From: a virus
Length of the DNA stretch: 64,000 bases
Direction: 5' to 3' (one strand)
IMG/VR virus record: IMGVR_UViG_3300021425_000008
Coordinates: 77,062-141,061 of that record
The position numbers were made by a program, and so were the translations under genes. Shown one piece after another: positions 58,530-64,000 of this stretch. Positions within the stretch are counted from its first letter, which is position 1. Every line of letters begins with the position of its first letter. The notes below the pieces were generated by a model, which was not told the DNA's origin, did no database searches, and was given only the letters and a program-made list of their open reading frames with translations.

Positions 58530-58843
58530 TGAAACTACGAAAGAGTGAACCTGCAATAGTGAAGTCGGAAATGCCACACTATTATGAACTTAAATTCAAG
58601 GATCATCCTAATGGAATTGAGAAAGTTCATTGTGGTACAATGAAAGATGTAGAACGTATGTTAGAGATCTATCCAGATGCAATATACTCCAAGATTCTTC
58701 TACCAAATTCACCACAAACCGTAGAAGTACAAGCAACATCTGTTGAAGAACCTCTTGCACTTCCTACAATCAAAATTGAGGGTCAGGAGATCCCTATTCA
58801 ACAAAATCTTCCCCAATCTGAACTAAAAGAACTTGAACTATGA
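58529..58843 (+). CDS. Hypothetical protein
   Basis: Coupled to both gp41 and mazG by stop/start overlaps. Confidence 0.7.
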   Translation: MKLRKSEPAIVKSEMPHYYELKFKDHPNGIEKVHCGTMKDVERMLEIYPDAIYSKILLPNSPQTVEVQATSVEEPLALPTIKIEGQEIPIQQNLPQSELKELEL

Positions 58844-59247
58844 CCATTGATCCGCAAAAATATATTGACTTTGTTCGTCAAACTACAAGTCAAGAAAGTC
58901 TTGATTGGCCAACCCTGTCTGCTCGACTGACTCATCTTGAGATGCATGATGAGGCAAATGTCACTCAACTTCTCACTGCTGCTCTTGGTATCAGTGCAGA
59001 GGCTGGTGAGTTTACTGAGGTTGTGAAGAAGATCTTCCTTCAAGGTAAACCATATACTGAAGAGAATGTCTTCCACATGAAACGTGAACTCGGTGACATC
59101 ATGTGGTATGTTGCTCAAGCATGTATGGCTCTGGACATTTCATTCGATGAGATTCTTGAGATGAATGTTGAGAAACTGTCGGCACGATATCCTGAGGGTA
59201 CCTTTGATGTTCACTATTCTGAAAACCGTAAGGAGGGAGACCTGTGA
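58840..59247 (+). CDS. mazG: MazG nucleotide pyrophosphohydrolase
   Basis: EAGEFTEVVKK, ELGDIMWY and NVEKLSARYP. Confidence 0.95.
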   Translation: MTIDPQKYIDFVRQTTSQESLDWPTLSARLTHLEMHDEANVTQLLTAALGISAEAGEFTEVVKKIFLQGKPYTEENVFHMKRELGDIMWYVAQACMALDISFDEILEMNVEKLSARYPEGTFDVHYSENRKEGDL

Positions 59248-59474
59248 TTAAACTAGAATTAGATGTAAGACAAGCAGCATCCATTCGTCAGGTGCTATAT
59301 AAAGAACAGAGTATTTACACATACGATCCTAAATGTGTTCCTCCACGTATCGTTGACATTCGTGAAGTCATCGGTTCATTGGATACTCAGATCGAGGCTG
59401 AACTCGAAGAAGCTGCAAAAAAAATTCAAAAGCTTGAGGAGGAAGCAGCACCAGACTACGGAGTTGGGAAGTGA
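59244..59474 (+). CDS. Hypothetical protein
   Basis: GTGA overlaps at both ends; AGGAGG SD. Confidence 0.7.
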   Translation: MIKLELDVRQAASIRQVLYKEQSIYTYDPKCVPPRIVDIREVIGSLDTQIEAELEEAAKKIQKLEEEAAPDYGVGK

Positions 59475-59911
59475 AACAGGTACACATCTGTCAATTATTT
59501 GATGATGGTATCTGGGAGGATAGAGCTGAAGACTGGCGTATAAAACCAGATTGTGATTCTGTTCTTTTTCTTAAGTACATTGAGGAATATCTAGTTCCCG
59601 AAATATTACAAACTATTTGTTTTGACAAAGTAATTCATACGTCTGAAATTTTGTATCCTGATTTGTCATTGGATAACTGTATTTGTTGTAATGGAGTTAA
59701 ACATAAGTTGTGTAACATCAATAAACCAGTCATTGTTGTTCACAACATGCCTAACCCATACAACAAAGAATACAAACTTATTGACGGAAAACACAGATTC
59801 AATAAAATGCGTAGTATGGGGATGACAGAATCCAAGATGTACGTCCTTGAGTTTGAAGAGATTAAACATCTATTCAAAGACATTAATCACAATAAGTATA
59901 TTAAAAAATGA
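59471..59911 (+). CDS. ParB/sulfiredoxin-like domain protein
   Basis: PVIVV...YKLIDGKHR signature. Confidence 0.7.
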   Translation: MKQVHICQLFDDGIWEDRAEDWRIKPDCDSVLFLKYIEEYLVPEILQTICFDKVIHTSEILYPDLSLDNCICCNGVKHKLCNINKPVIVVHNMPNPYNKEYKLIDGKHRFNKMRSMGMTESKMYVLEFEEIKHLFKDINHNKYIKK

Positions 59912-60603
59912 CATACGACTTTTCTTTCGCACATTCACCAGAAGGATTCGATAATCACATCGACAAATCTATTCGGGGGTACTCAAACCTTCTCGATGAC
60001 ACTGTATCGTTCTCTCGATACTTCGTAGAAGATCATACCAAAGTCGTTGATGTGGGTTGTTCTACTGGTAAACTGACCAAGATGATCCTTGCCAATAATC
60101 AGTCTCGTAAACAAACTCAATATGTAGGTGTTGAACTTGCTGGTGGGTTCTATGATGACTTGGATGAGAGATACAAAGAGATCCGTAAAGACTACCCTTG
60201 GGCGATTCTGGATTTTGTTCGTGGTAATGTCACCAACTATGAGTTCAAAAACTGTTCTCTGGTGACATCATTGTTCACTCTTCAGTTCATGCCAAAGACT
60301 ACTCGTCAAGATACAATCAATAAAATTTATGAGGGTCTGAATGAAGGTGGGGCATTCATCTTTGCAGAGAAGTTGATGTGTGAGAATGCGTTCTTTCAAG
60401 AACTACTGACATTCAACCACTATGACTATAAAAGAAAATCATTCACTGCAGATGAGATCATGGACAAGGAGAAAGAACTACGTGATATGTTGAAACCAAA
60501 TACTTGGGAAGAACTCAAGTCTATGATATGGTGTGCTGGGTTCAGAGACTGTCAGATCTTCTGGAGAAACCATCAGTTCGTTGGAGTTATTGCTATCAAA
60601 TAA
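59908..60603 (+). CDS. cmoA: CmoA-like carboxy-S-adenosylmethionine synthase
   Basis: GYSN, DVGCSTG, FTLQF, KIYEGLNEGGAFIFAEK and HYDYKR match CmoA family motifs in order along the whole length. Confidence 0.85.
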   Translation: MTYDFSFAHSPEGFDNHIDKSIRGYSNLLDDTVSFSRYFVEDHTKVVDVGCSTGKLTKMILANNQSRKQTQYVGVELAGGFYDDLDERYKEIRKDYPWAILDFVRGNVTNYEFKNCSLVTSLFTLQFMPKTTRQDTINKIYEGLNEGGAFIFAEKLMCENAFFQELLTFNHYDYKRKSFTADEIMDKEKELRDMLKPNTWEELKSMIWCAGFRDCQIFWRNHQFVGVIAIK

Positions 60604-60648
60604 ACTGGCACAAGGGACCTAGACAGGTCCCTTTTTTTATTGTATACT
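60603..60648 (+). promoter_or_regulatory. Combined terminator and early-type promoter (copy 3 of the element)
   Basis: AACTGGCAC; AAGGGACCT/AGGTCCCTT hairpin plus T tract; TAGACA-N17-TATACT. Confidence 0.75.
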
Positions 60649-60707
60649 TTGATTGGACGAGAGCAATGGTGCCAGTGTCCATTAAAAGGTCATAGGAGGC
60701 CAAATAA

Positions 60708-62054
60708 ATGTTATACACTAAACAAACCCCAACCATTCGTGAATTTCGTGACACGATGTATCACAAAACAGAATGTCAACCAGTAGGACAACGACTTCCT
60801 GTTTATTCAAAAGACAATGCAAAAAGCATTGGAATTATTACAACCCTCTTAGATGGATATGATATCGGAACGATTACAGTAATGAAACTGAATCGTCAAC
60901 AAAAACGTGCTGCTGCAAAAGTAAAGTTTGAATTTGAAAGTATTGATGGTGGTCACCGTAAGCGCTCTTTGTATTCATATCTACAAGACGATTTCATGGT
61001 TCGTGGGAAATATTTCTCACAACTTTCAGAAAAAGAACAAGATGCATTTCTAGACACTGAACTTTCATTCACTGTTTACAACGCACTTGATTCTGCAACA
61101 AAAGGACACATCTTTCGCACACTGAATAAAACAACAGATGTGAATTTCATTGAGATGCTTAACTCATATGGAGACATTTCAGTTGCAAACTTTATTCGTG
61201 AAACAGTTCGTACTGTCAAACAGATTGACAATGAATGCAATACTCTTTTTGAATTCACCTTGAATGCAAAAAGTGAGCCAAACTACACATACCTTTCCTT
61301 TGACAACGACCGTCTGAAACAAGACCATGCGTTTGCTCGTATTGCACATCGTTATATTCAACATCCAAAACAGTTGCTTGGTGGTTCGTCTGATACTGAA
61401 CTTGAAGCAATGTATGAAGATTCAGAATTGACAATGAAAGATATTCCAGTTGCGAAAATCAAAGCACACCTAGATTTCTTACGCAAAGTTGCAATGTATC
61501 GAAAGCAACAGTTCAAAACTGGACTTACACAGCATGACTTCAAAGCACTTTCATACCTTTACTTCTATCTTTCAGATACCTATGGTACATTTACCATTCC
61601 TGATGCAGAAGAATTTTTCAAGGCATATGCTCGTGCAAACTCATCACTAATGAATAAGGATGGAGACTATGCCGAGGTTATTCACGAACCTTCTGGTTAT
61701 AGTGTACAGGTGATGTACAAGAAGTATATTGCTGCTCCTTGGGATGGTAAAAAGATTTCTACTGCAATATCTTATCTTGTTGGAGAAATGGGTGATATTG
61801 AAGATATCATTGAAACACGAGACAACAACCGTTCTTTCACTGTAAACGAGAAGGAGGCAAAACTTGCCGAACAGAATTTTGTTTGTGCAGTCGATGGAAA
61901 AAAACTTGAGTGGGATGATGCACATGCTGCTCACATCACTGCACACGCAAATGGTGGACGTACTAAGTATAGTAACCTTGCAATGGTTCGTGCCTGTTAT
62001 AATAAAGAAATGGGTACAATAGACTTGAACGAATACAAAAAATTGTGTGTATGA
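60708..62054 (+). CDS. DUF262 plus C-terminal HNH protein (GmrSD/SspE-like nuclease)
   Basis: DUF262 motifs QR, IDGGHR and FRTLN; C-terminal HITAHANGGRT..SNL.....YN HNH-like segment; AGGAGG SD. Confidence 0.75.
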   Translation: MLYTKQTPTIREFRDTMYHKTECQPVGQRLPVYSKDNAKSIGIITTLLDGYDIGTITVMKLNRQQKRAAAKVKFEFESIDGGHRKRSLYSYLQDDFMVRGKYFSQLSEKEQDAFLDTELSFTVYNALDSATKGHIFRTLNKTTDVNFIEMLNSYGDISVANFIRETVRTVKQIDNECNTLFEFTLNAKSEPNYTYLSFDNDRLKQDHAFARIAHRYIQHPKQLLGGSSDTELEAMYEDSELTMKDIPVAKIKAHLDFLRKVAMYRKQQFKTGLTQHDFKALSYLYFYLSDTYGTFTIPDAEEFFKAYARANSSLMNKDGDYAEVIHEPSGYSVQVMYKKYIAAPWDGKKISTAISYLVGEMGDIEDIIETRDNNRSFTVNEKEAKLAEQNFVCAVDGKKLEWDDAHAAHITAHANGGRTKYSNLAMVRACYNKEMGTIDLNEYKKLCV

Positions 62055-62866
62055 TTGACATTATCCTCAGTGATATCATCTCTCAAGAAGTCCCTACAGA
62101 TGATGTGGGGATTTTGTTGTCTGGTGGTGTAGATAGTTTAAGTCTAGGGTTTGCAGCAGACCGTGCAGGTAAAAGAGTTGATGCATATACTTTTCATCTT
62201 GAAGGTGATAAGTCATATGATGCTTTGAAAGCAGAAGAAGTATCCTCTAAGTTTGGGTGGAACTGTAAGACCATTGTTGTCCCTAAAGATAATCTTGCTC
62301 AAGACTTTCTCCGTCTTGTGAAAGACTACGATTGTAGAAAGAAGACACACTTTGAGTGTACGTTTCCTTTCCTCTATGTCTTCCCTGAAATCACAAACAA
62401 GTACTTACTGAGTGGGATTGGTGCAGACGGATATTATGGTGTAAGTAAGAAAGCAATCCTTCACTTCAAAACACCAAAAGAAAAGTTCGATCAATTTAGA
62501 CGTAACTACTTCATGCCACATAATGTGACAGGATTTCGACAGATTGAACAACTGTGTAATGAAAGGGATATCAAACTCATCCACCCATATATCTACCATG
62601 ACGATGTAAAAAGTTTCTTCTTTCAATATGATTGGTTCGAACTAAACAAGCCAAAACAAAAACAGATTGTAAGAGATGCATTTGCTGATGAGTTTGGTCG
62701 TATCAAAGCGGTAAAGGATCATATCAATCTGCAACTTGGTTCAAATATTGATCACTTGTTTGAAACACTCTTAGATGATAAGATGCTAAATAATCGTGGT
62801 AGGAAGAGGGTCATGGATCTCGCCTCTGACTACGCATCATCTGGACAAGGAACACTTCCATTATGA
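62051..62866 (+). CDS. Asparagine-synthetase-like ATP-dependent amide ligase (synthetase domain only)
   Basis: LLSGGVDS PP-loop, LSGIGADGYYG, PY and KQIVRDAF; no N-terminal Cys/Ntn glutaminase domain. Confidence 0.8.
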   Translation: MIDIILSDIISQEVPTDDVGILLSGGVDSLSLGFAADRAGKRVDAYTFHLEGDKSYDALKAEEVSSKFGWNCKTIVVPKDNLAQDFLRLVKDYDCRKKTHFECTFPFLYVFPEITNKYLLSGIGADGYYGVSKKAILHFKTPKEKFDQFRRNYFMPHNVTGFRQIEQLCNERDIKLIHPYIYHDDVKSFFFQYDWFELNKPKQKQIVRDAFADEFGRIKAVKDHINLQLGSNIDHLFETLLDDKMLNNRGRKRVMDLASDYASSGQGTLPL

Positions 62867-63981
62867 AACTGCCATATAAATTACAAGACGTTTATGACGG
62901 TGAGGCTCAATCAAAGTTCACCGTGATCTCTACCTTTGCTGGTGGTGGAGGATCCTCTACAGGATATCGACTCGCAGGTGCGAAGATTTTGTGTATCAAT
63001 GAGTTCGTGGAAGAAGCTAGAAAGACATATGCTGCAAACTATCCATCAACACCGATTGTCCCTGATGACATCAAACAACTAACGGGTGGTGACTTTCTTA
63101 AGATCACAGGATTGAAACCAGGAGAACTTGATATTCTTGATGGATCACCACCATGTTCTGCATTCTCTGTTGCAGGATCTATGTGTCGTGGTGAGGGATC
63201 TAAACACTCTGATGGATGGGGTAAGACAAAGAACTATTCTGATGGTAAGAAAGTAGAAAACATCGAAGATTTGTTCTTTGAATTTATTCGTGTTGCCGAA
63301 GGTATTCAACCAAAAGTTATTGTTGCTGAGAACGTCAAAGGATTGACAATTGGTGAGGCAAAGACTTATTATGCAAAGATTACCAATGCCTTTGAGGATC
63401 TTGGTTATCTCGTCACATCAAAAGTGATGAAGTCATCTCACTACGGTGTAGGTCAGGCAAGAGAACGACTCATCTTTATCGCGGTTCGTCAAGACATCGC
63501 AGATAAGATTGGTTTGAATGTACTTACAGTATCTTCACTCTTCCCTCCCACGTCATCTAAAGATACAACCATCGGTGATATTATTGATGGAGTTGAACAA
63601 GATCCTGAGTACATTCAGGGTCTTGTCGATCATATGACAAAGAGTGGTATCTACAAAAAAGTTGTGAGTAAGATGCCAAAGGATCCTAAAAAGATTCTAT
63701 CTGGCATGGACTACCACGAGAAAGGTCATTGTTTCAATACGAAGAGGGCATCATTCTATAAACCCTCTCCGACCTTGACAGCAAGTGGTGGTCTGATACA
63801 CTGGAAGGAAGACAGAGTTCTTTCTGTTCCAGAACTTAAGCGCATTCAATCTCTCCCTGACGACTTCATTCTTACTGGCTCTCACTCACAACAAACTGAA
63901 AGAGTTGGTAGAATGGTACCTCCCCTCATGATGAAGGCAATCGCCGAAAACATTTACAAAGAAGTTCTATCTAAATTATGA
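62863..63981 (+). CDS. C5-cytosine DNA methyltransferase-fold enzyme, predicted carboxymethyltransferase
   Basis: Motif I FAGGGG, motif IV GSPPC (C98), motif VI ENV, motif VIII QARER, motif IX RIQSLPD, and motif X variant VGRMVPP. Confidence 0.9.
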   Translation: MKLPYKLQDVYDGEAQSKFTVISTFAGGGGSSTGYRLAGAKILCINEFVEEARKTYAANYPSTPIVPDDIKQLTGGDFLKITGLKPGELDILDGSPPCSAFSVAGSMCRGEGSKHSDGWGKTKNYSDGKKVENIEDLFFEFIRVAEGIQPKVIVAENVKGLTIGEAKTYYAKITNAFEDLGYLVTSKVMKSSHYGVGQARERLIFIAVRQDIADKIGLNVLTVSSLFPPTSSKDTTIGDIIDGVEQDPEYIQGLVDHMTKSGIYKKVVSKMPKDPKKILSGMDYHEKGHCFNTKRASFYKPSPTLTASGGLIHWKEDRVLSVPELKRIQSLPDDFILTGSHSQQTERVGRMVPPLMMKAIAENIYKEVLSKL

Positions 63982-64000
63982 AACTACTTACTCTCGAAGA
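63978..64000 (+). CDS. Start of the next coupled ORF (MKLLTLE...), truncated by the window end
   Basis: ATGA overlap with the methyltransferase stop codon. Confidence 0.5.

What the first reader, a model, noticed from the sequence alone, without database searches (positions are those of the whole stretch)
59471..63981. Predicted phage DNA hypermodification pathway: carboxy-SAM to 5-carboxymethylcytosine to an amide derivative
Seen: a tight cluster right after the replication genes, with ATGA/GTGA overlaps except for one gap at 60604-60707. It encodes a ParB-like protein, a CmoA homologue, a DUF262-HNH protein, an AsnB-type synthetase domain and a C5-MTase with an altered motif X. Known: CmoA makes carboxy-SAM from SAM and prephenate, normally for CmoB and tRNA cmo5U. 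No CmoB-like gene is in this window. AsnB-type domains adenylate a carboxylate and form an amide. Inference: the C5-MTase transfers a carboxymethyl group to DNA cytosine and the ligase amidates it, giving a hypermodified base that blocks restriction. From memory, a similar pathway may have been reported recently in a Synechococcus phage, so novelty must be checked in the literature.
Basis: partly seen in the sequence, partly recalled or inferred. Interest (0 to 1): 0.95.

Follow-up and report, generated by a model that had tools for sequence, protein, structure and literature searches.

The report
Known phage carboxymethylcytosine pathway, plus mobile nuclease
This gene cluster in an uncultured marine cyanophage is a near-identical copy of the CmoA-CmoX-CmoY system, published in December 2025, that turns DNA cytosines into glycine-capped carboxymethylcytosine; the only unreported feature is a selfish-looking nuclease gene inserted in the middle of it.

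Summary
The predicted pathway is correct, but it is already published. Yang et al. (Nat Commun 2025, PMC12783734) showed it in Synechococcus phage S-B43: CmoA makes carboxy-SAM, CmoX writes 5-carboxymethylcytosine at GC sites, and CmoY ligates glycine to give 5gcxmC.

The window's proteins are 94% (CmoA), 94% (CmoY) and 97% (CmoX) identical to the S-B43 enzymes. CmoX keeps the SPPC motif and Arg350. The 141-kb contig holds no CmoB. This scan has met the same system in at least 59 other genomes.

S-B43 lacks two of the genes here:
- **146-aa protein.** It carries a DGxHR motif. Its ParB-like fold is not confirmed.
- **448-aa protein.** It combines a ParB/DUF262-like N-domain with an HNH domain.

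The 448-aa gene behaves like a mobile, homing-endonuclease-like cassette:
- It has its own hairpin and promoter-like site, and its homology boundaries are sharp.
- Only 1 of 59 CmoY loci carries it.
- Its tree conflicts with the CmoX tree (AU p = 9e-6).
- It sits at a recombination breakpoint.
- More distant relatives lie between core replication genes.
- One copy has decayed.
- In two clades of the family it always lies directly upstream of cmoY.

The finding as given is already known. Interest is low to moderate.

The parts
59471..59911 (+). 146-aa accessory protein with a DGxHR (ParB/sulfiredoxin-like) motif; a precise cassette that S-B43 lacks
   Evidence: ORF. It matches phrog_35149 (unknown function) and has no Pfam hit. 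The family of about 156 representatives has invariant D105, G106 and R109. The indel relative to S-B43 is exact. Among about 60 close CmoX loci it is present only in L016, L017 and L020.
59908..60603 (+). CmoA, carboxy-SAM synthase
   Evidence: TIGR00740 E 8.5e-34. E. coli CmoA structures 4GEK/4IWN match at E 2e-27. It is 94% identical to the biochemically assayed SpCmoA of S-B43 (PMC12783734).
60604..60707 (+). Intergenic regulatory region: terminator-like hairpin at 60612-60633 plus a T-run, overlapping a promoter-like TAGACA-N17-TATACT at 60620-60648, then a GGAGG ribosome-binding site
   Evidence: Sequence; consensus scans; fold of -34.3 kcal/mol, z -3.0. Homology to other copies of the nuclease cassette begins at about 60628-60650. 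It resembles the PeSL terminator/promoter cassettes of T4-type phages (PMC2839356, PMC4122927).
60708..62054 (+). 448-aa nuclease: ParB/DUF262-like N-domain, helical middle region and C-terminal HNH; a mobile cassette inserted exactly between the cmoA stop and the cmoY start
   Evidence: No Pfam or PHROG family. The family has invariant S-x-DGGHRKR (78-86) and H409/N423/N432. AlphaFold pLDDT is 86. Structural matches: SspE N-domain Z 8.1, BrxU Z 7.2 over residues 3-363, Cas9 HNH Z 8.6.
62051..62866 (+). CmoY, ATP-dependent amide ligase (5cxmC + glycine gives 5gcxmC)
   Evidence: PF00733 E 2.5e-13; PP-loop SGGVDS and no glutaminase domain. It is 94% identical to SpCmoY and 100% identical to L016. 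The start was set by alignment with S-B43.
62863..63981 (+). CmoX, DNA cytosine C5-carboxymethyltransferase
   Evidence: PF00145 E 1.3e-52. It matches the PDB 8YF3 sequence at E 1e-245 over 372 of 372 residues, about 97% identical. SPPC sits at 95-98 and ENV at 156.
63910..63912 (+). Codon AGA = Arg350, the motif-X Asn-to-Arg change that binds the carboxyl group of carboxy-SAM
   Evidence: It aligns to the motif-X Asn of M.HaeIII. Its role was shown by the 8YF3 structure and the R350N mutant (PMC12783734).

Best explanation
The cluster is the CmoA-CmoY-CmoX DNA hypermodification pathway of a T4-like marine cyanophage closely related to Synechococcus phage S-B43.

**Pathway.**
- CmoA converts SAM plus prephenate to carboxy-SAM.
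- CmoX uses Cys98 of the SPPC motif to attack cytosine C6, and Arg350 to hold the cofactor's carboxyl group. It transfers the carboxymethyl group to C5 of cytosines in GC sites of double-stranded DNA.
- CmoY adenylates that carboxyl group and ligates glycine, giving 5-glycylcarboxymethylcytosine. This base shields the DNA from restriction.

These steps were shown for the S-B43 orthologues and are inferred here from 94-97% identity and conserved key residues.

**Two extra genes.** Both are optional cassettes and not core pathway parts.
- A 146-aa DGxHR-motif protein. It may help the enzymes act on dsDNA; this is an inference from precedent only.
- A 448-aa ParB/DUF262-like + HNH nuclease. I read this as a free-standing, homing-endonuclease-like mobile gene whose insertion site is the 5' flank of cmoY. 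My sub-confidence in this reading is about 0.6.
For: **Pathway.**
- The window's CmoX matches the 8YF3 sequence at E 1e-245 and keeps SPPC and R350.
- Identities to S-B43 are CmoA 94%, CmoY 94% and CmoX 97%, with the same gene order downstream of MazG.
- No CmoB is present in the contig.
- 11.8% of cytosines lie in GpC, which fits the roughly 10% modified C reported for S-B43.

**Nuclease as a mobile cassette.**
- S-B43, L016 (CmoY 100% identical) and 58 of 59 informative CmoY loci lack it.
- The indel is exact: the cmoA stop is followed by about 1447 nt and then the cmoY ATG.
- Identity to the L104 copy is about 90% from 60650 to 62050 and falls to 50-60% at both edges.
- It is 85-90% identical to copies whose neighbouring CmoY, CmoX and CmoA are only 50%, 62-64% and 60-62% identical.
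- The three loci with the window's gene order form a 100/100 clade for CmoX. The nuclease data reject that clade with AU p = 8.7e-6.
- A second presence/absence pair exists in another background: L106 against L225.
- It sits at a mosaic breakpoint. The left arm is 99.6% identical to L020 and the right arm 97% identical to L016.
- Relatives without Cmo neighbours lie next to DNA polymerase, nrdB, DnaB, UvsX and gp45.
- L183 carries a copy broken into three frames.
- Catalytic motifs are invariant across the family.
Against: - No chemistry was done on this phage. It is an uncultured IMG/VR contig, about 68% complete, so the product is inferred by orthology.
- CmoA scores below NCBIfam's equivalog cut-off.
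- Two clades of the nuclease family lie directly upstream of cmoY in every locus examined (about 30), across three gene orders, usually with tight or overlapping stop/start codons. That pattern would also fit a functional partnership with CmoY.
- I saw no co-conversion tract and no nuclease-specific polymorphism in cmoY.
- The left flanks of donor and recipient are unrelated, which simple homology-driven homing does not explain.
- The overall fold resembles the type IV restriction enzymes BrxU and SspE, not known homing endonucleases.
Confidence: 0.9

Rival explanations
1. The 448-aa ParB/DUF262-HNH protein is a working fourth component: a GmrSD/BrxU-like nuclease that reads cytosine modification state. 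It would cut unmodified, merely carboxymethylated or differently amidated DNA and spare 5gcxmC DNA. The cluster would then act as a phage-borne 'modify self, cut non-self' module against host DNA or competing cyanophages.
For: - The N-domain and overall layout resemble SspE and BrxU (Z 8.1 and 7.2).
- A PADLOC restriction-enzyme model hits the N-domain at E 2.4e-6.
- Two clades of the family always sit directly upstream of cmoY despite three cluster rearrangements.
- Its stop codon overlaps the cmoY start.
- The ligase slot next to it is hypervariable among near-identical phages, so co-infecting phages probably carry different marks.
Against: - Only 1 of 59 CmoY loci and about 2 of 60 close CmoX loci carry it.
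- The window's CmoY is 100% identical to that of a phage without the nuclease, so there is no sign of co-adaptation.
- Its phylogeny is discordant with the Cmo genes.
- More distant relatives sit between replication genes with no modification genes nearby.
- A decayed copy exists.
- Its own hairpin and promoter-like site separate it from cmoA.
Confidence: 0.25
2. The pathway runs as described, but the final base is not the glycine amide. This CmoY would use another amine (another amino acid, ammonia or a polyamine).
For: The paper itself infers several ligase clusters with different pockets. Sister contigs swap in a 465-aa glutaminase-AsnB ligase, or have no ligase at all, at the same position. 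The glycine-pocket residues are given only in a figure that I could not read.
Against: This CmoY is 94% identical to SpCmoY, which was shown in vitro, in E. coli and in virion DNA to add glycine. It has the same 271-aa length and also lacks a glutaminase domain.
Confidence: 0.07
3. The genes are unrelated neighbours: an ordinary 5mC methyltransferase, a CmoA acting on tRNA through the host's CmoB, and an asparagine-synthetase-like metabolic gene.
For: Each protein alone hits only generic families: PF00145, Methyltransf_12/25 and PF00733.
Against: SpCmoX accepts only carboxy-SAM and not SAM, and the window keeps the responsible Arg350. The three genes co-occur in three different orders across hundreds of contigs. 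Start and stop codons overlap.
Confidence: 0.02

Closest known systems
CmoA-CmoX-CmoY system of Synechococcus phage S-B43 (Yang et al., Nat Commun 2025, PMC12783734; CmoX structure PDB 8YF3)
   Same: The three enzymes are orthologous at 94%, 97% and 94% identity. The SPPC motif, Arg350 and the PP-loop are the same, and the ligase likewise lacks a glutaminase domain. The cluster sits in the same position downstream of MazG in a T4-like cyanomyovirus, and the DNA is about 87-90% identical.
   Different: The window has two extra cassettes that S-B43 lacks: the 146-aa DGxHR protein before cmoA, and the 448-aa nuclease with its own regulatory region between cmoA and cmoY. The paper mentions neither HNH nor DUF262 genes.
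Free-standing homing endonuclease genes of T4-type phages (such as mobE and the seg genes) and 'nuclease genes at boundaries of genetic exchange' (Barth et al. 2023, PMC10448857)
   Same: It has an HNH nuclease domain and its own promoter. It is inserted between conserved genes, is present or absent among close relatives, has a phylogeny discordant with its flanks, sits at a recombination breakpoint, and has a decayed copy.
   Different: The N-terminal ParB/DUF262-like domain and 448-aa architecture are not those of the known T4 Mob or Seg enzymes. No cleavage site or homing event is known. No co-conversion tract was seen.
GmrSD-family type IV restriction enzymes (BrxU 7P9K, SspE 6JIV)
   Same: It has a ParB/DUF262-like N-domain with a DG..R motif, a helical middle region and a C-terminal His-Me-finger nuclease. 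BrxU is the best full-length structural match.
   Different: There is no Pfam DUF262 or DUF1524 hit. The nuclease domain is a Cas9/McrA-type HNH. The gene is encoded by a lytic phage inside a modification cluster, and the structural scores are only moderate (Z 7-8).
ParB-like activators of phage DNA-modifying enzymes (5mYOX-ParB pairs, O'Toole et al. PNAS 2026, PMC13229309)
   Same: It is a small protein with a ParB-type DGxHR motif, encoded next to post-replicative DNA-modifying enzymes. Two family members are fused to 2OG-Fe(II) oxygenase domains.
   Different: There is no PF02195 hit and no fold model. Homologues in other cyanophages are not next to Cmo genes. Only about 4 of 60 close Cmo loci carry it.

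Membership tests
CmoX (DNA cytosine C5-carboxymethyltransferase) | C5-MTase fold with the catalytic SPPC motif | tested here: met
   PF00145 E 1.3e-52; SPPC at residues 95-98 and ENV at 156.
CmoX (DNA cytosine C5-carboxymethyltransferase) | Arg in place of the motif-X Asn (R350 of SpCmoX), which binds the carboxy-SAM carboxyl group | tested here: met
   Motif X reads VGRMVPP and R350 is codon 63910-63912. It aligns to the G-N-A-V-P Asn of M.HaeIII.
CmoX (DNA cytosine C5-carboxymethyltransferase) | Carboxy-SAM-dependent carboxymethyl transfer to GC sites | not testable with these tools
   Inferred from about 97% identity over 372 of 372 residues to the assayed and crystallised SpCmoX.
CmoA (carboxy-SAM synthase) | Full-length match to the CmoA equivalog model | tested here: inconclusive
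   TIGR00740 scores 117 bits against a cut-off of 193, and NF011995 scores 101 against 285. The match covers the full length, and E. coli CmoA structures match at E 2e-27.
CmoA (carboxy-SAM synthase) | Orthology to a phage CmoA with demonstrated carboxy-SAM synthase activity | tested here: met
   It is 94% identical to SpCmoA, including the EIMDKEKELRDML segment. SpCmoA has kcat 2.33 per second.
CmoY (5cxmC:glycine amide ligase) | Asn_synthase/PP-loop ATP-binding domain without a glutaminase domain, encoded next to CmoX | tested here: met
   PF00733 E 2.5e-13; SGGVDS motif, 271 aa. It is 94% identical to SpCmoY. The supplement confirms that SpCmoY lacks the amidase domain.
CmoY (5cxmC:glycine amide ligase) | Glycine as the amine substrate | not testable with these tools
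   The pocket residues are shown only in a figure. The substrate is inferred from 94% identity.
GmrSD-family type IV restriction enzyme (DUF262 + DUF1524) | DUF262 N-domain and DUF1524 C-domain detectable by sequence | tested here: not met
   No PF03235 or PF07510 hit at E up to 10; only weak HNH_5 and HNH hits at E 0.056 and 0.24.
GmrSD-family type IV restriction enzyme (DUF262 + DUF1524) | Structural similarity over the whole protein | tested here: inconclusive
   SspE N-domain Z 8.1 (134 residues), BrxU Z 7.2 (262 residues, rmsd 11.4) and DndB-like Z 5.4. The C-terminal domain matches Cas9 HNH at Z 8.6.
GmrSD-family type IV restriction enzyme (DUF262 + DUF1524) | Modification-dependent DNA cleavage | not testable with these tools
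   This needs enzymology on C, 5cxmC and 5gcxmC DNA.
Free-standing homing endonuclease gene | Nuclease gene that is present or absent at one site among close relatives, with discordant phylogeny | tested here: met
   (AU p = 8.7e-6).
Free-standing homing endonuclease gene | Site-specific cleavage of the nuclease-less allele and gene conversion | not testable with these tools
   No co-conversion tract or protective polymorphism is visible in cmoY. This needs experiments.
ParB/sulfiredoxin N-domain (PF02195), for the 146-aa protein | Match to the ParB_N profile or fold | tested here: inconclusive
   No Pfam hit for the protein or for 42 relatives. D-G-x-H-R is invariant. Weak hits to ParB/Srx-fold serine kinase and to 1VK1 have E of about 0.5-0.8. 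Atlas neighbours are named ParB/sulfiredoxin.

The most novel reading that the evidence does not exclude
The 448-aa ParB/DUF262-HNH protein founds a new class of phage nuclease that reads cytosine hypermodification. One version is a homing-type enzyme adapted to cut heavily modified (5cxmC or 5gcxmC) DNA of rival Cmo phages next to cmoY. The other is a 'restriction' partner that spares glycyl-capped DNA and destroys host or competitor DNA carrying no mark or a different amide. It would then be a weapon in a contest between cyanophages that differ in the ligase they carry at this locus.
Probability: 0.2. Interest if true: 0.7.

Novelty: already known. Interest (0 to 1): 0.3.

Why it matters
The pathway was a real discovery when it was published. 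It gave the first natural 5-carboxymethylcytosine and a carboxyl 'handle' for building amide hypermodifications on DNA. This window adds only another, nearly identical carrier, which was probably already among the 5,615 IMG/VR and MGnify CmoX sequences in that paper.

- The slot between cmoA and cmoX is a recombination hot spot among near-identical cyanophages. It can hold a glycine-type ligase, a glutaminase-AsnB ligase, no ligase, a second methyltransferase, or unknown genes.
- An unannotated family of about 450-aa ParB/DUF262-like + HNH nucleases moves between Cmo clusters and always lands directly upstream of cmoY.

If that nuclease proves to sense the modification, it would link DNA hypermodification to competition between phages. 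If it is a plain homing endonuclease, it is a new architecture for that class and a likely driver of the mosaicism at this locus.

Tried and rejected
- **Pfam, NCBIfam and PHROG scans** of the 448-aa and 146-aa proteins gave no family. A member-by-member Pfam scan of the 146-aa family found no ParB hit.
- **A PDB sequence profile** of the nuclease family gave only a Cas9 HNH hit at E 0.84.
- **Profile-profile comparison** of the 146-aa family with the nuclease N-domain aligned only the 16-residue DG.HR motif, with probability 2%. No homology is claimed.
Its fold is untested.
- **tblastn of the nuclease** against 50,697 cultured phage records found only one weak partial hit. The family is essentially known from metagenomes alone.
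- **Protective polymorphisms or a co-conversion tract** in cmoY of nuclease-bearing genomes: none were seen.
- **The 146-aa family as a general Cmo companion:** rejected. Homologues in S-RIM32, S-SCSM1 and S-SKS1 lie elsewhere, and no other Cmo cluster type in my loci has one.
- **The nuclease as an obligatory pathway member:** rejected.
- **A complex prediction** for nuclease plus CmoY was not run. Adjacency alone did not justify it.


Full report
**Observation.** The region holds five same-strand ORFs at the reported coordinates:

| Coordinates | Length |
|---|---|
| 59471-59911 | 146 aa |
| 59908-60603 | 231 aa |
| 60708-62054 | 448 aa |
| 62045-62866 | 273 aa |
| 62863-63981 | 372 aa |

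Start and stop codons overlap as GTGA or ATGA at 59471, 59908, 62051 and 62863. The only gap is 60604-60707. UvsX, a DnaB-like helicase and MazG lie upstream. The 831-aa ORF before them corresponds to family-B DNA polymerase in syntenic relatives. The window is the last 64 kb of a 141,061-bp IMG/VR viral contig, about 68% complete. CmoX ends 19 nt before the contig end.

**What the three core genes are.**
- **The 231-aa protein is CmoA-like.** TIGR00740 scores E 8.5e-34, below the equivalog cut-off, and the E. coli CmoA structures 4GEK/4IWN match at E 2e-27.
- **The ligase has an Asn_synthase PP-loop domain** (PF00733, SGGVDS) and no glutaminase domain. Alignment with S-B43 puts its start at ATG 62051 (271 aa), not at GTG 62045.
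- **The 372-aa protein is a C5-MTase** (PF00145, E 1.3e-52). It has SPPC at 95-98, and motif X reads VGRMVPP with Arg350 in place of the usual Asn.
- **No CmoB** (PF08003) is present anywhere in the contig.

**Literature.** A full-text search found Yang et al., Nat Commun 2025 (PMC12783734). In Synechococcus phage S-B43 they showed the following:
- SpCmoA is a fast carboxy-SAM synthase.
- SpCmoX accepts only carboxy-SAM and writes 5-carboxymethylcytosine at GC sites.
- Arg350 contacts the cofactor's carboxyl group (PDB 8YF3), and the R350N mutant is dead.
- SpCmoY ligates glycine in an ATP-dependent reaction to give 5gcxmC.
- Virion DNA carries 5gcxmC on about 10% of C and about 75% of GC sites.

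The window's CmoX matches the 8YF3 sequence at E 1e-245 over all 372 residues. By tblastn, CmoA is 94%, CmoY 94% and CmoX 97% identical to the S-B43 proteins. The DNA is 89.5% identical over the shared genes. The surrounding 25 kb is 86-88% identical to Synechococcus phages RB11-B, RN05-S, S-B43 and S-B05.

By orthology, the 'amide derivative' is the glycine amide. In the window, 11.8% of cytosines lie in GpC, in line with the published modification level. This scan has already logged the same system in at least 59 genomes.

**What differs from S-B43.** S-B43 has MazG, a 76-aa ORF, CmoA, CmoY and CmoX, with nothing between them. The window has two exact insertions.
- **The 146-aa ORF.** It occupies the spot where the 76-aa ORF's stop overlaps the cmoA start in S-B43.
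- **A segment of about 1447 nt.** It lies between the cmoA stop and the cmoY ATG. It consists of the 104-nt intergenic region plus the 448-aa ORF.

**The 146-aa protein.**
- It belongs to a viral family of about 156 representatives with invariant D105, G106 and R109 and near-invariant H108, a DGxHR motif of the ParB/sulfiredoxin type.
- Neither it nor 42 relatives hit any Pfam ParB model.
- Support for the fold is limited to weak profile hits to ParB/Srx-fold proteins (E about 0.5-0.8) and to language-model neighbours named ParB/sulfiredoxin.
- Homologues in other cyanomyoviruses sit next to thyX or regA, not next to Cmo genes. Among close CmoX loci only L016, L017 and L020 carry it.
- Two family members are fused to 2OG-Fe(II) oxygenase domains.
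- A 2026 paper shows ParB-like proteins activating phage DNA dioxygenases on dsDNA (PMC13229309).
- A helper role is therefore plausible but untested, and the gene is clearly optional.

**The 448-aa protein: structure.**
- It has no Pfam or PHROG family.
- It has 293 or more metagenomic homologues of about 440-485 aa, none annotated.
- Across 48 of them, S-x-DGGHRKR (78-86) and H409, N423 and N432 are invariant.
- An AlphaFold model (pLDDT 86) matches as follows:

| Model region | Match | Score |
|---|---|---|
| Residues 1-144 | DUF262 domain of SspE | Z 8.1 |
| Residues 1-144 | ParB-like PadC | Z 7.5 |
| Residues 3-363 | BrxU | Z 7.2 |
| Residues 376-448 | Cas9-type HNH domains | Z 8.6 |

These Z values are only moderate.

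**The 448-aa protein: is it part of the pathway?** The distribution says no.
- From the CmoX side, 80 IMG/VR loci with CmoX 86-99% identical include only two with the nuclease.
- From the CmoY side, only 1 of 59 informative loci has it upstream.
- L016 has a CmoY 100% identical to the window's and no nuclease.

**The 448-aa protein: placement is not random.**
- Every family member at 49% identity or more, plus a second clade at 38-43%, lies directly upstream of cmoY.
- The cluster orders are nuclease-Y-X-A, X-A-nuclease-Y, or A-nuclease-Y-X.
- These members form two well-supported clades.
- About 50 more distant members have no Cmo genes nearby. They sit beside DNA polymerase, nrdB, DnaB, UvsX, gp45, carbamoyltransferase, DUF932 and others.

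**The 448-aa protein: evidence for mobility.**
- The window's nuclease is 85-90% identical to copies in L104-L107, whose CmoY, CmoX and CmoA are only about 50%, 62-64% and 60-62% identical. L006 has a 76% nuclease but a 92% CmoX.
- At the nucleotide level, identity to L104 is about 90% from 60650 to 62050 and falls to 50-60% exactly at the cmoY ATG and just after the promoter-like -10.
- The three loci with the window's gene order are a 100/100 clade for CmoX, but the nuclease alignment rejects that clade with AU p = 8.7e-6. One caveat applies: I had seen a quick tree before naming the group, although the group is defined by gene order.
- A second presence/absence pair exists in another background. 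L106 and L225 are collinear at about 80% identity except for the 1.5-kb nuclease segment.
- L183 has a copy broken into three frames.
- The window itself is a mosaic whose breakpoints flank the cassette. Region 58840-60603 is 99.6-100% identical to L020, which instead carries a 465-aa glutaminase-AsnB ligase. Region 62051-64000 is 97% identical to L016.
- The gap holds a hairpin plus T-run (60612-60633) overlapping a promoter-like TAGACA-N17-TATACT. This resembles the PeSL terminator/promoter cassettes that mediate gene shuffling in T4-type phages (PMC2839356, PMC4122927).
- Nuclease genes at boundaries of genetic exchange are a described phage pattern (PMC10448857).

**Reading of the nuclease.** The best fit, at about 0.6, is a free-standing homing-endonuclease-like mobile gene whose landing site is the 5' flank of cmoY. 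The main rival, at about 0.25, is a functional GmrSD-like nuclease tied to CmoY. That rival is favoured by the fold, by the strict adjacency and by the overlapping stop and start codons. It is disfavoured by the gene's rarity, by the identical CmoY in nuclease-free genomes and by the discordant tree. Three observations remain unexplained by simple homing: I found no co-conversion tract, no protective polymorphism in cmoY, and the donor and recipient left flanks are unrelated.

**Verdict.**
- The finding as given is already known: a near-identical copy of the published type system, not a discovery.
- Residual interest lies in the unannotated ParB/DUF262-HNH cassette and in the hypervariable ligase slot.

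Noticed in passing
L016-L095 (IMG/VR loci with CmoX 86-99% identical to the window), slot between cmoA and cmoX: The slot is hypervariable among near-identical phages. It can hold a 271-aa CmoY directly after cmoA, a 465-aa glutaminase+AsnB ligase (L020, L037, L052), no ligase at all (L058, L065-L067, L082), or a ligase plus a second C5-MTase (L052). Sister phages therefore probably carry different final cytosine marks.
   Followed up: partly
L019:1102-2106 (also L033, L050, L060): A different, unannotated 334-aa ORF (weak phrog_27790 hit, no Pfam) occupies the same cmoA|cmoY junction where the window has the 448-aa nuclease. It is a second cassette at the same site.
   Followed up: partly
L183:4977-6373: A homologue of the 448-aa nuclease (70% identical) is split over three reading frames directly upstream of CmoY-CmoX-CmoA in a 137-kb contig. 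It looks like a decaying copy.
   Followed up: no
L209-L223, L226-L228 and others: Many CmoY-like ligases (about 50-55% identical) have no CmoX or CmoA within 4 kb on either side. They may act on another carboxylated substrate, or with partners encoded elsewhere.
   Followed up: no
window 1-64000: GpC and CpG dinucleotides are both at 0.60 of expectation (1499 and 1494 observed against 2511 expected). 11.8% of cytosines lie in GpC, the CmoX target.
   Followed up: no
window 60604-60675: Beyond the terminator hairpin, an outer inverted repeat CTGGCAC...GTGCCAG encloses the hairpin and the promoter-like site. The 115-nt RNA fold is -34.3 kcal/mol, z -3.0.
   Followed up: partly
P0213, P0255 (relatives of the 146-aa protein): Two members of the DGxHR family are fused to 2OG-Fe(II) oxygenase domains, one of them also with TPR repeats. 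This recalls the ParB-dependent phage thymine dioxygenases (PMC13229309).
   Followed up: partly
L003 (Synechococcus phage S-SCSM1, MK867354.2 147104-151764): The homologue of the 146-aa protein there is annotated 'chromosome segregation protein'. It is followed by thymidylate synthase and four carbamoyltransferase genes, possibly another pyrimidine hypermodification cluster. Two non-Cmo relatives of the 448-aa nuclease (L130, L135) also precede carbamoyltransferase genes.
   Followed up: no
window 60454-60492 (CmoA residues about 183-195): Relative to E. coli CmoA there is a 'charge swap' (EISQKRSMLENVM against EIMDKEKELRDML). It is shared with SpCmoA, which is ten times faster than the E. 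coli enzyme, so it does not impair carboxy-SAM synthesis.
   Followed up: partly
window 63978-64000: A further ORF starts at ATG 63978, overlapping the CmoX stop codon (ATGA), and is cut off by the end of the contig. S-B43 has a 69-aa hypothetical gene in the same position.
   Followed up: no
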